Shown: positions 24,001-27,000 of the stretch, in pieces
Layout: each line of letters starts with the position of its first letter
Position numbering within the stretch: position 1 is the stretch's first letter
Assembly: GCA_030265395.1 (NCBI GenBank)
Contig: JARFYF010000112.1
Span: 65,175,737 to 65,239,736 of the forward strand
Source: Rhina ancylostomus
Lineage: Eukaryota
DNA: 64,000 nucleotides
Direction of reading: 5' to 3'
Position numbers: made by a program

Positions 24001-27000
24001 NNNNNNNNNNNNNNNNNNNNNNNNNNNNNNNNNNNNNNNNNNNNNNNNNNNNNNNNNNNNNNNNNNNNNNNNNNNNNNNNNNNNNNNNNNNTGTCAAAAC
24101 TCAGAAAAGCGCTCTTTCCTCATGTTAAGAGAATAATCAGAATTAAGGCATTTTAGCACCACGAACTAAAATTCCATTTAAGTATATGCTTTAAAAGATC
24201 GCGGTTAATGGTAGTTCAGGAATGTTTAATCACCTTGCCCCAAGTACACAGCAAACATGAATGTGTGCATAGAGTGCTTGGAATAAACAGTAAGTTTCTG
24301 CAAAAAAAAACCCTATAAAAGAGTAAGCAAAATTTTGCTACTCCCTCTGTCAGAACTGACATTCGTCAATTTCATCCAGGAGCAAGAAATCTTTGGAAGA
24401 CGGGACCCAAGCCAGCCTGAGCCAATGAAGAGACTGGATGGGCGGGTCCACCTGACCGCCCGCCGCTCGGAGGGCCGCGTACCAATGATCGGAGCCGAGG
24501 GGCGGCCCGGGTGGCGTGTCCAGCAGCTGGCGCGGGTATAACTCAGCGACAAGCGGATGGAGTGTGATCGGGACAGCGCCAGTTCAGCGCTCACCTGCAC
24601 ATGACCCACTTGCAAACATGATGTCCATGAATAGCAAGCAGCCTTTCGGCATGCACCCCATCCTGCACGAACCCAAATACACGACTTTGCACTCGAGCAC
24701 CGAGGCCATCCGGAGAGCCTGTCTGCCCACCCCACCGGTAAGTGCGGCCAATCCTTCCAGCTCTGAGCACTCTCCTCCTCTGGAAAAATGGGCTATTAAA
24801 ATAATATAAGTACGCTAGTTTGGAAAGATTTTTTTTGATTGATTACGTTTCCTACCTCGAACTCTGCCAATTTGCCAGAGCATTTGAAGTATTTCCCGTA
24901 TTTTGGTATTTATAAGGAGACGACTAGTGATGGGTTGGTGGTGTTGGTACAATGTCTTTTTGGCACTCTCGTGGGCAGGGCTGCCATTCTCGAAATTATG
25001 TTAAAAGCAACCCCTGAAGCGGAAGACGAGGTGTCCGAAATGCGTGATTAGAAAAGTTATTTGAATCAAGATTATTTTGAATGATTTCGGTGCGTGTCCA
25101 GTGAGACGTGCATTCGGTGCGCGGAGATGGGCTTTATGACTGCATCATCTTTCATTACTTTTACCATTTTGCGAGTTGCATAAAATATCTTTGCCAGCCG
25201 TGGCGTTGGTTCTGAGTCTTAATGAATGCTGCTACTTCCTCACGCCGGGATCAATTATTTTCGTTTTATTAGAGTGTGTGTGTGTGTCTCGTTGATTGAA
25301 TGCTGTTGCTGAATTTAAAAAGATCCGTCAACTACAGAATGTCAAGAAGGCAGTGATAATTATGAACGCTAAGACTATTTCGCCGGAACGCCTGGGCTGA
25401 GAGAGAGGTGTCCATTTCGCTGGCGAATTCCCAACGACTCCAGCACCATGGTTAAGTTACCGTATTGTTCTCTCTGCAGACTGCGGTCCCGATAATAACG
25501 TGATCTCTTTTTTTTTATTTCCTTTGTAGTTGCAAAGCAATATTTTCGCCGGACTTGATGAAACTTTGCTGTCCCGAGCCGAAGCCCTGGCAGCCGTGGA
25601 TATTGTATCGCAGAAAAACCACCCCTTCAAACCAGATGTCACCTACCATACAATGAGCAGCGTGTCGTGCACTCCTACCTCCTCTTCTGTACACCTACCC
25701 CATCCGTCGGTCCTGACCTCCCATCCCCATCACCACCACCACCATCACCAGTCAGCCCAGGGCCTGGAAGGAGACCTCCTGGACCACCTGAACCCTGGTC
25801 TGTCCCTGAGTGGGATGACGGGACCCGAAGTGGGGTCCACGCCATCACATCCCCATGCACACATGCCTGGCATGAACCACATGTCACATCACCCTCATCA
25901 CCATCAGCCTATGAACATTTCCCATTCCCACACCCTGTCGGCCCACATCGGCCTGGGAGGCAATGAGGGAGAAGCAGATCCAAGGGAGCTCGAGTCCTTC
26001 GCGGAGAGGTTCAAGCAGAGGAGGATCAAACTTGGAGTGACACAAGCCGATGTTGGGTCAGCCTTGGCCAACCTGAAGATCCCAGGTGTGGGTTGTTTAA
26101 GTCAAAGCACTATCTGTAGGTTTGAATCCTTGACTCTCTCGCACAATAACATGATTGCGCTTAAGCCCATTCTGGAGGCCTGGTTGGATGAAGCCGAGAG
26201 GGCACAGAGAGAGAAAATGACCAAACCCGAGCTCTTTAATGGAGGGGACAGGAAGCGCAAACGTACCTCTATCGCTGCGCCGGAAAAACGATCCTTAGAA
26301 GCGTATTTCGCCGTCCAGCCTCGTCCTTCATCCGAGAAGATCGCAGCAATCGCAGAGAAATTGGACCTGAAAAAGAATGTGGTGAGAGTGTGGTTTTGCA
26401 ATCAGAGACAGAAACAAAAACGAATGAAATTTTCCGCCACACATTAAGACAATCTGCACACTGCTCTACCCAACTGAGACGATGTGGACCAGGATCTAAT
26501 AACATTTGATTTCTTGGTTAAGCTTTGCCCAACAAAAGGAAGCGATGGCAGGGACATCAAGCCGGAAGTATATCTCTGAAGAATGAGTTTGAATTGTGTA
26601 TATTTTGTACGGGTTTGAGAGAAGCAAGCTTTATGTCTTGGTTTAGATGAGACTTCGTTAACTTATCTGGCAATCATATTGTAACAAAATAATCTCAACG
26701 AGACTTGAATTATGTTTAATCACATTCTTGTGAAAAATATCCTGTTTGCTTTTCTACTGTAAAAGGGTGTACAAAGTCTGTGAATGAATTGTGCGTTTAA
26801 CCTTTATTCACGAATTGCTGTAGTTCATTGATCCGGAGATGTACAACTGCAGCTGAAGTGGGCATGGTACTGGGCTAGGTTATGAAATATACCGTTGTTG
26901 ATTTCATTCAGTTAAAAAAAAGCAGAAAGAATCAGATCTGTAAGAACGGGTCACATTAATTCTATTGTACCTCCTGTATGGTCCACAAGTCTGTCTCTGC

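What the first reader, a model, noticed from the sequence alone, without database searches (positions are those of the whole stretch)
24618..26447. Intact fourth Brn3 paralogue (pou4f4/Brn3d) in a probable cartilaginous fish
Seen: a complete 345-aa POU-IV protein with mosaic features: a POU4F3-like QPFGMHP start and GLEGDLL, POU4F1-like AIRRACLPTPP and KFSAT, plus distinctive ELESF, GVGCLSQ and ILEAWL substitutions in the otherwise near-invariant POU-S domain. From recall, these mark the paralogue kept in teleosts, frogs and birds but absent from human and mouse. Inference: an intact copy here supports an origin in the early vertebrate genome duplications. Its role in sensory cells (hair cells, electroreceptors, retinal ganglion cells) is little studied, and pipelines may mislabel it POU4F1- or POU4F3-like.
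Basis: partly seen in the sequence, partly recalled or inferred. Interest (0 to 1): 0.65.

Follow-up and report, generated by a model that had tools for sequence, protein, structure and literature searches.

The report
Shark copy of fourth Brn3 gene
This is an intact two-exon gene for the fourth Brn3-type (POU class IV) nerve-cell transcription factor in a shark or ray, a gene that public databases already list for other cartilaginous fishes, so it is real but ordinary.

Summary
Exon 1 (24618-24737, 40 aa) and exon 2 (25530-26447, 305 aa plus TAA) have canonical GT/AG splice sites and add up to 345 aa. Exon 2 carries a POU-specific domain and a homeodomain.

Searched exon by exon, both exons match best 'brain-specific homeobox/POU domain protein 3-like' of sawshark (97-98%), skate (93%) and elephant shark (88%). 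In a 60-row maximum-likelihood tree, exon 2 sits in a 22-row clade (support 100/100). That clade includes a stickleback protein named 'POU class 4 homeobox 4', plus birds, frogs, turtles, squamates, coelacanth, lungfish and both monotremes. AU tests reject placing the cartilaginous-fish rows with POU4F1, POU4F2 or POU4F3. Cys189, Glu216, Arg224 and Asp240 are fixed in 22 of 22 clade rows and in 0 of 38 others.

The gene is already annotated in three cartilaginous fishes, so it is not new. The duplication predates jawed vertebrates, but a specific 2R origin stays untested: the window holds no neighbouring gene and outgroup rooting was inconclusive. A 13-kb CpG-retaining block covers the locus.

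The parts
24618..24737 (+). Coding exon 1 (40 aa, first part of the N-terminal POU-IV box), from ATG to the splice donor
   Evidence: Sequence read (ATG at 24618, CCG|gtaagt at 24737/24738). The exon-1 search hits POU class IV proteins, best sawshark P0001 at 98%, E 1.4e-17.
24738..25529 (+). Single intron, 792 nt, GT...AG with a pyrimidine tract
   Evidence: The junction ...TPP|LQ... matches the uninterrupted orthologue proteins P0001-P0004.
25530..26447 (+). Coding exon 2 (305 aa plus TAA): His-rich region, POU-specific domain, linker, POU homeodomain
   Evidence: Open frame, stop, Pfam, homologues.
25980..26198 (+). POU-specific domain (exon-2 aa 151-223), holding clade-specific S156, C189 and E216
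   Evidence: Pfam PF00157, 3.8e-31; residue counts.
26253..26423 (+). POU homeodomain (exon-2 aa 242-298) with the class IV recognition-helix ending CNQRQKQKR
   Evidence: Pfam PF00046, 4.5e-18. The alignments show CNRRQKEKR in classes I-III. 19 of 20 unnamed class IV representatives have CNQRQKQKR.
24422..24617 (+). Putative core promoter and 5' UTR: CCAAT at 24422 and 24482, GC boxes at 24440 and 24499, TATAA at 24537
   Evidence: Read by eye. These are motif sightings only; no transcript data and no statistical test.
23001..36000 (.). CpG-retaining block around and downstream of the gene (CpG observed/expected 0.53-0.85 in 13 of 13 1-kb bins)
   Evidence: The other 51 bins range 0.00-0.40, and 50 of those 51 are at or below 0.25. 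No ORF of 75 aa or more with coding character lies in 26500-36500.

Best explanation
The window carries the elasmobranch orthologue of the fourth vertebrate POU class IV gene. That gene is called pou4f4 in teleosts, BRN3 or 'brain-specific homeobox/POU domain protein 3' in chicken and in NCBI annotation, and pou4f1.2 (XBrn3d) in Xenopus.

Shown: an intact two-exon gene, both DNA-binding domains present, near-total protein conservation with other cartilaginous fishes, and membership of the pou4f4/BRN3 clade.

Inferred: the protein is a sequence-specific transcription factor. It would bind AT-rich Brn-3-type sites through the bipartite POU-specific domain plus homeodomain, with the N-terminal POU-IV box and His-rich region serving activation or partner contacts. 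By analogy with its orthologues, it would act in differentiating sensory neurons. Those orthologues are zebrafish pou4f4 in Rohon-Beard neurons, Xenopus pou4f1.2 in placodes downstream of Six1/Eya1 and NeuroD, and chick POU4F1.2 in somatosensory cranial ganglia.

Also inferred: the CpG-retaining 13-kb block reflects a germline-unmethylated regulatory domain of the kind seen at developmental genes.
For: Gene model.

Domains.

Best matches. Exon 2 matches sawshark at 97%, skate 93%, elephant shark 88%, coelacanth 85% and tetrapods/teleosts 72-84%. The first POU4F2/F3-named row comes at rank 85 with 73%. Exon 1 shows the same order, with the first POU4F1-named row at E 1.5e-10 against 1.4e-17 for sawshark.

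Tree. 60 rows, 347 columns, LG+C20+F+G4. The BRN3/pou4f4 clade of 22 rows has support 100/100; the cartilaginous-fish subclade 99/89; the window plus sawshark plus skate 100/99.

AU tests. The four cartilaginous-fish rows were held with each alternative in turn: POU4F1, lnL drop 57.7, p 4.9e-12; POU4F3, drop 47.2, p 1.9e-4; POU4F2, drop 72.4, p 1.6e-4.

Paralogy. Sawshark and elephant shark each also have a separate POU4F1 (P0246, P0211).

Fixed residues. C189, E216, R224 and D240 occur in 22/22 clade rows and 0/38 others. Among 20 unnamed divergent class IV representatives, 18 have GVGSLSQ and 0 have GVGCLSQ, so the Cys is derived.

Constraint. POU+homeodomain identity is 159/159 to sawshark and skate.

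Expression of orthologues, from passages read: PMC8367380, PMC5035141, PMC4730756.

CpG block.
Against: No transcript, expression or binding data exist for this locus.

Synteny could not be checked. The 64-kb window holds no other recognisable gene: 10 further ORFs scanned, 0 above a Pfam cut-off; Rfam gave 0 matches.

No cartilaginous-fish POU4F2 or POU4F3 was among the 120 rows. Four paralogues within one cartilaginous fish therefore rests partly on a paper's mention of catshark pou4f3 (PMC11979771, one passage).

The tree rows (59 of the 256 proteins then held) were picked by me for taxonomic spread, not at random.

The AU groups were set by the finding's own refutation test but were run after the first tree had been seen.

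The equivalence of the names BRN3, pou4f1.2, Brn3d and pou4f4 rests on PMC4730756 (passage), on one stickleback row named 'POU class 4 homeobox 4', and on recall. No Xenopus row of this clade was in my tree.
Confidence: 0.93

Rival explanations
1. It is a divergent or lineage-specific duplicate of POU4F1 (Brn3a) or POU4F3 (Brn3c), not a separate ancient paralogue.
For: The N-terminal AIRRACLPTPP and C-terminal KFSAT are as in POU4F1 (alignment A2). QPF..MHP and GLEGDLL resemble POU4F3. POU+homeodomain identity to POU4F1 rows (90-93%) is only a little below that to distant clade members (91-96%).
Against: AU tests reject union with POU4F1 (p 4.9e-12), POU4F3 (p 1.9e-4) and POU4F2 (p 1.6e-4). 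Sawshark and elephant shark have a separate POU4F1 that groups with bony-vertebrate POU4F1 at 100/98. The shared states are also found in the two cyclostome rows, so they are old states.
Confidence: 0.02
2. It is an unexpressed relic or pseudogene that merely keeps an open frame.
For: No expression data are available for this locus. The paralogue was lost in therian mammals, so it can be dispensable.
Against: The 345-codon frame is intact with canonical splice sites. POU+homeodomain identity is 159/159 to sawshark and skate and 158/159 to elephant shark, lineages long separated. The end branch in the tree is very short, 0.0058. The locus lies in a CpG-retaining block, unlike its flanks.
Confidence: 0.02
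3. The paralogue is real, but it arose from a duplication other than the classical 2R pair. For example, an earlier split would make it sister to all other vertebrate POU4 genes, including the lamprey and hagfish copies sampled.
For: With 10 unnamed divergent class IV representatives as outgroup, the BRN3/pou4f4 clade (99/92) is sister to cyclostome pair + POU4F1 + (POU4F2, POU4F3), a grouping supported at 91/88.
Against: That node is not strongly supported. The outgroup branches are very long (0.54-2.72) and the tool warns about them. Holding BRN3/pou4f4 together with POU4F1, as a symmetric 2R history predicts, costs only 4.29 lnL units, p-AU 0.091, and so is not rejected. Only two cyclostome rows were sampled.
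Confidence: 0.25

Closest known systems
'Brain-specific homeobox/POU domain protein 3-like' of Pristiophorus japonicus (P0001), Rhinoraja longicauda (P0002) and Callorhinchus milii (P0003)
   Same: Same orthology group and same architecture. Exon 2 is 97%, 93% and 88% identical and exon 1 is 98%, 92% and 90% identical. The POU+homeodomain part is 159/159, 159/159 and 158/159 identical.
   Different: There are a few substitutions in the N-terminal half. The His run is 7 residues here, 9 in sawshark and longer and interrupted in the skate. The species of the window was not determined.
pou4f4 (teleosts) / BRN3 (chicken) / pou4f1.2 = XBrn3d (Xenopus)
   Same: Same clade at 100/100, with the same fixed C189, E216, R224 and D240 and similar length (337-354 aa for most rows). 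The literature places these orthologues in sensory neurons and placodes (PMC8367380, PMC5035141, PMC4730756; passages read).
   Different: Exon 2 is 72-84% identical. D220 (WLDEAE) is seen in only 5 of the 22 clade rows. Expression in cartilaginous fishes is unknown. No Xenopus row of this clade was in my tree.
POU4F1 (Brn3a)
   Same: Class IV POU factor with a two-exon layout. It shares AIRRACLPTPP and a C-terminal KFSAT-type ending. POU+homeodomain identity is 89-93%.
   Different: It forms a separate clade (100/98) that has its own cartilaginous-fish members. It has S, Q and E where this gene has C189, E216 and D240. It carries longer Gly/Ala/His-rich inserts.
POU4F3 (Brn3c)
   Same: Similar short length (about 334-340 aa), a QPF.M.P start without the extra residue, and G at the GLEGDLL position in 9 of 13 rows.
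   Different: It forms a separate clade (100/100). POU+homeodomain identity is 88-91%. It has Y instead of F301 and V instead of T304.

Membership tests
POU class IV (POU4/Brn-3) transcription factors | POU-specific domain followed by a short linker and a POU homeodomain | tested here: met
   Pfam Pou at aa 151-223 (107 bits, cut-off 27) and Homeodomain at aa 242-298 (65 bits, cut-off 22.9) of exon 2.
POU class IV (POU4/Brn-3) transcription factors | Class IV form of the two recognition helices (QSTICRFE; VWFCNQRQKQKR), as opposed to CNRRQKEKR in classes I-III | tested here: met
   Both are present in the exon-2 translation. The class II/III PDB chains (POU3F1, POU2F3, Oct-1) aligned show CNRRQKEKR. 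19 of 20 unnamed class IV representatives show CNQRQKQKR. That these motifs define the class is partly recalled.
POU class IV (POU4/Brn-3) transcription factors | N-terminal POU-IV box | tested here: met
   Exon 1 alone retrieves 265 proteins at E<=0.001. All named rows among the 120 listed are POU class IV proteins.
POU class IV (POU4/Brn-3) transcription factors | Sequence-specific binding to Brn-3-type DNA sites | not testable with these tools
No class IV POU structure is in the PDB copy: the best chain is 7xrc_C at 145 bits, at the level of other POU classes.
pou4f4 / BRN3 / pou4f1.2 orthology group | Forms one clade with named members, to the exclusion of POU4F1, F2 and F3 | tested here: met
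   22-row clade at 100/100. AU tests reject the alternatives: p 4.9e-12, 1.9e-4 and 1.6e-4.
pou4f4 / BRN3 / pou4f1.2 orthology group | Clade-specific residues in the POU domain and linker | tested here: met
   C189, E216, R224 and D240 occur in 22/22 clade rows against 0/38 others; S156 in 21/22 against 1/38.
pou4f4 / BRN3 / pou4f1.2 orthology group | Coexists with POU4F1-3 in the same genome (true paralogue) | tested here: inconclusive
   Sawshark and elephant shark have both this gene and POU4F1. Cartilaginous-fish POU4F2/F3 were not among the rows returned. Catshark pou4f3 is mentioned in PMC11979771. The window's own genome could not be searched.
pou4f4 / BRN3 / pou4f1.2 orthology group | Conserved neighbouring genes (synteny) | not testable with these tools
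   No other gene was recognised in the 64 kb. No vertebrate genome collection was available.

The most novel reading that the evidence does not exclude
The four substitutions fixed across the whole clade could give this paralogue a DNA-site, partner or redox sensitivity different from Brn3a-c. The most notable is a derived cysteine two residues before the Ser-Gln that opens the POU-specific recognition helix, and seven residues before that helix's conserved cysteine. In elasmobranchs the gene might then specify a sensory neuron class, such as somatosensory or Rohon-Beard-like neurons or electrosensory or lateral-line afferents, that therian mammals cover with POU4F1 since losing the gene. The 13-kb CpG-retaining block downstream would hold its enhancers.
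Probability: 0.12. Interest if true: 0.45.

Novelty: already known. Interest (0 to 1): 0.15.

Why it matters
The practical value is in annotation. The gene should be labelled pou4f4 (POU class 4 homeobox 4) rather than the opaque 'brain-specific homeobox/POU domain protein 3-like'. It should also be kept apart from POU4F1 and POU4F3 in cross-species expression studies of hair cells, electroreceptors, retinal ganglion cells and sensory ganglia.

The gene also documents that four POU4 paralogues existed before cartilaginous and bony vertebrates split. Within mammals, the loss appears confined to therians, because both monotremes keep it.

None of this changes current understanding. The family, its members in cartilaginous fishes and its absence from placental model species are already on record in databases and in the papers read.

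Tried and rejected
- The listing of cluster members on the three best hits was not run because the shared database is off. The 18 members of the sawshark cluster, and so the window's species, stayed unknown. I did not pursue this with another tool.
- Looking for flanking genes to test synteny found nothing. There are 36 ORFs of 110 aa or more in the window. Ten were scanned in Pfam and 0 reached a curated cut-off. Rfam gave 0 matches and there were 0 tRNAs. The 26.5-36.5 kb stretch has no coding-looking ORF.
- A Brn-3 consensus site recalled from memory (ATAATTAAT) gave 1 match in the window against 1.56 expected by chance, and that match lies outside the locus. This gives no sign of autoregulatory sites.
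- The bacterial-type promoter/terminator scan does not apply to a vertebrate gene and is ignored.
- The tandem-repeat scan of 22-37 kb found one short array at 36757-36827, unrelated to the gene.
- Outgroup rooting with 10 unnamed divergent class IV representatives was inconclusive because of long branches and weak deep nodes.
- I considered that the POU4F1-like and POU4F3-like patches might reflect recombination or gene conversion. I rejected this because those states are also present in the cyclostome rows and throughout the clade.
- Literature. Searches for 'pou4f4' (4 papers), 'Brn3d' (1), 'pou4f1.2' (2), POU4 evolution terms (45 papers, 20 listed), 'pou4f'+'shark'+'ohnolog' (6 papers, 4 listed) and 'platypus'+'pou4f' (8) were run. 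In the passages I read, none describes this paralogue in a cartilaginous fish or a monotreme. The library holds open-access papers only.
- One search term was too long and the search failed. It was not repeated.
- Structure and complex prediction were not run, because the domains are textbook folds and no binding claim is made.
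Full report
**Scope and rules kept**

I do not take this window for human, because its gene matches elasmobranch proteins best. The spliced model was searched exon by exon. The joined exon 1 + exon 2 protein was never made, searched or folded, and the 345-aa length is simple addition. The 14 runs of N (1,743 bases) were left as they are.

**1. The observation**

- The frame 25530-26447 is open for 305 codons and ends in TAA.
- Upstream, ATG at 24618 is the first in-frame ATG after a stop, with A at -3. 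After 40 codons the frame meets CCG|gtaagt at 24737/24738.
- The 792-nt intron ends in a long pyrimidine tract and tttgtag| at 25529.
- The junction reads ...ACLPTPP|LQSNIF..., which is continuous in the orthologous proteins.
- Pfam finds a POU-specific domain (aa 151-223 of exon 2, 3.8e-31) and a homeodomain (aa 242-298, 4.5e-18), both far above the curated cut-offs. Exon 1 alone matches no Pfam family.

**2. What it is**

*Exon 2 search.* The search returned 2,546 proteins at E<=1e-20 among 6,167 candidates, with 120 listed.
- The best are 'brain-specific homeobox/POU domain protein 3-like' of Pristiophorus japonicus (97%), Rhinoraja longicauda (93%), Callorhinchus milii (88%) and Latimeria (85%).
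- Next come turtles, frogs, caecilians, salamanders, birds, ray-finned fishes, squamates and platypus, at 72-84%.
- The first row named POU4F2 or POU4F3 stands at rank 85 (73%).
- One stickleback row is named 'POU class 4 homeobox 4'.

*Exon 1 search.* The search used longer targets and returned 265 proteins at E<=0.001, with 120 listed. It gives the same order: sawshark 98%, then the same family including echidna. A lamprey protein, a hagfish protein and POU4F1 appear only from about E 1e-10.

*Paralogue rows.* A profile of two each of POU4F1, F2 and F3 (alignment A2) brought in cartilaginous-fish POU4F1 rows from Callorhinchus, Pristiophorus, Rhincodon and Mustelus. No cartilaginous-fish POU4F2 or POU4F3 was among the 120 rows listed.

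*Tree.* I built a maximum-likelihood tree from 60 rows: the window's exon 2 plus 59 of the 256 proteins then held, chosen by me for taxonomic spread. It used 347 columns and LG+C20+F+G4, with a careful search.
- Four jawed-vertebrate clades appear: BRN3/pou4f4 (22 rows, 100/100), POU4F1 (12 rows, 100/98), POU4F2 (11 rows, 100/99) and POU4F3 (13 rows, 100/100). There is also a lamprey+hagfish pair.
- The window lies in the cartilaginous-fish subclade (99/89), next to sawshark and skate (100/99). Its end branch is 0.0058.

*AU tests.* These are the tests the finding itself named as refuting. The four cartilaginous-fish rows were held together with each alternative:
- POU4F1: lnL drop 57.7, p 4.9e-12.
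- POU4F3: lnL drop 47.2, p 1.9e-4.
- POU4F2: lnL drop 72.4, p 1.6e-4.

All three alternatives are rejected. The caveat is that the tests were run after the first tree had been seen.

*Clade-specific residues.*
- Exon-2 residues C189 (GVGCLSQ), E216 (ILEAWL), R224 and D240 are fixed in 22 of 22 clade rows and absent from all 38 others. S156 (ELESF) is 21/22 against 1/38.
- Twenty unnamed divergent class IV representatives from the 50%-identity library were checked. 18 show GVGSLSQ and none shows GVGCLSQ. 11 show LQAWL and 1 shows LEAWL. The Cys and Glu are therefore derived marks of this clade.
- Glu at the ILEAWL position also occurs in class II POU proteins (LLEKWL in Oct-1 and POU2F3), so it is not new to the POU superfamily.

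*The 'mosaic'.* The POU4F1-like and POU4F3-like patches are shared old states. F301 occurs in this clade, in POU4F1 and in both cyclostome rows. G78 occurs in this clade, in 9/13 POU4F3 rows and in both cyclostome rows.

*Constraint.* The POU+homeodomain part (159 positions) is identical to sawshark and skate, differs at one position from elephant shark, and is 91-96% identical across the rest of the clade.

*Surroundings.*
- No other gene was recognised in the 64 kb, so the window gives no synteny evidence.
- The 200 bases before the ATG show CCAAT, GC-box and TATAA motifs by eye; this is untested.
- A sharply bounded block at 23,001-36,000 keeps CpG at 0.53-0.85 of expectation in all 13 1-kb bins. 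The other 51 bins range 0.00-0.40, and 50 of them are at or below 0.25.
- I read this block as the footprint of a germline-unmethylated domain of the kind described at developmental genes. That reading rests on two papers seen only as the start of their abstracts in the search listing: PMC5806489, and PMC5437953 for an elephant-shark methylome. It is an inference; no methylation data were seen.

**3. How it most likely works**

*Shown:* an intact class IV POU factor gene under strong protein-level constraint.

*Inferred from the family:*
- It binds DNA bipartitely through the POU-specific domain and the homeodomain.
- The POU-IV box and His-rich region serve activation or partner contacts.
- It acts in differentiating sensory neurons.

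*What the orthologue literature says (passages read):*
- Zebrafish pou4f4 marks Rohon-Beard neurons (PMC8367380).
- Xenopus pou4f1.2 is expressed in placodes, needs Six1/Eya1, and is placed downstream of NeuroD (PMC5035141).
- The chick genome has an orthologue of amphibian Pou4f1.2 'not found in mammals', expressed with POU4F1 mainly in somatosensory ganglia (PMC4730756).
- A zebrafish preprint describes a 344-aa 'brn3a1' in trigeminal and cranial ganglia, dorsal spinal sensory neurons, lateral-line placodes, retina and tectum (10.1101/2021.05.26.445703, abstract and section 7). By its length I suspect this is pou4f4, but I did not test that.
- In a catshark, pou4f3, not this gene, is the one reported in ampullae of Lorenzini (PMC11979771, one passage).

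No class IV POU structure is in the PDB copy, and PMC4245813 (passages) says the same. The structural role of the fixed residues is therefore open.

**4. Comparison and membership**

Membership in POU class IV and in the pou4f4/BRN3/pou4f1.2 group is met on every feature that could be tested. Synteny and DNA binding could not be tested. Coexistence with all three other paralogues in one cartilaginous fish is shown only for POU4F1.

**5. Origin**

The clade holds both cartilaginous and bony vertebrates, and so does POU4F1. The duplication therefore predates crown jawed vertebrates.
- Rooting with 10 unnamed divergent class IV representatives puts this clade (99/92) as sister to all other vertebrate POU4 genes (91/88). 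The outgroup branches are very long (0.54-2.72).
- The 2R-type grouping of pou4f4 with POU4F1 costs only 4.29 lnL units, p 0.091.
- The deep branching order is unresolved. '2R origin' is consistent with the data but not shown.

On loss in mammals:
- Among the first 84 rows, 69 carry a taxon. None is a therian mammal and one is platypus.
- Echidna appears, and both monotremes group inside the amniote part of the clade (100/97).
- A paper that compared all POU genes of opossum and human lists only POU4F1-3 (PMC9937046, passages).

The loss therefore looks therian.

**6. Novelty and verdict**

The gene family has been known under several names, and orthologues are already annotated in a shark, a skate and a chimaera.

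Literature searches for the paralogue's names found few papers. None of the passages I read describes it in cartilaginous fishes, so 'little studied' is fair. The library holds open-access papers only, and supplements were closed; Figure S5A of PMC4730756 may bear on the phylogeny.

Interest is low. The remaining open points are synteny, the deep root, expression in elasmobranch sensory systems, and the role of the clade-fixed cysteine.

Noticed in passing
window 23001-36000: A sharply bounded 13-kb block keeps CpG at 0.53-0.85 of expectation in all 13 1-kb bins. The other 51 bins range 0.00-0.40. The block starts about 1.6 kb upstream of the ATG and runs about 9.5 kb past the stop codon, with no coding-looking ORF downstream. 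It looks like the footprint of a germline-unmethylated regulatory domain.
   Followed up: partly
protein hits P0059 (platypus) and P0145 (echidna); no window coordinates: Both monotremes have a member of the pou4f4/BRN3 clade, paired at 100/97 inside the amniote part of the clade. No therian appears among the 69 taxon-bearing rows in the first 84. The mammalian loss therefore seems therian-specific. The echidna entry is flagged LOW QUALITY by its source.
   Followed up: partly
protein hit P0255 (Mustelus asterias); no window coordinates: A protein labelled 'POU domain, class 4, transcription factor 3-like isoform X3' groups inside the cartilaginous-fish POU4F1 clade, next to Rhincodon POU4F1 (98/80). 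This looks like an annotation mislabel.
   Followed up: partly
window 24422-24541: Upstream of the ATG there are two CCAAT motifs (24422, 24482), two GC boxes (24440, 24499) and TATAA (24537). They were read by eye and suggest a compact core promoter and a short 5' UTR.
   Followed up: no
window 25722-25742 (His run in exon 2): The histidine run is 7 residues here, 9 in the sawshark orthologue and longer and interrupted in the skate. This is a length-variable low-complexity tract in an otherwise very conserved protein.
   Followed up: no
window 19437-19952 (-), 54299-54850 (+), 59663-60010 (+): ORF fragments next to masked N runs look, from recall only, like remnants of retrotransposon proteins. 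Pfam found no family for the two that were scanned (54533-54850 and 59663-60010). The first holds N and was not scanned.
   Followed up: partly
10.1101/2021.05.26.445703 (zebrafish preprint); no window coordinates: The 344-aa zebrafish 'brn3a1' described there as a Brn3a co-orthologue has the length of the cyprinid pou4f4/BRN3 rows (343-344 aa). The 366-aa 'brn3a2' has the length of Danio POU4F1 (P0237). 'brn3a1' may therefore be pou4f4 under another name. I did not test this by sequence.
   Followed up: no
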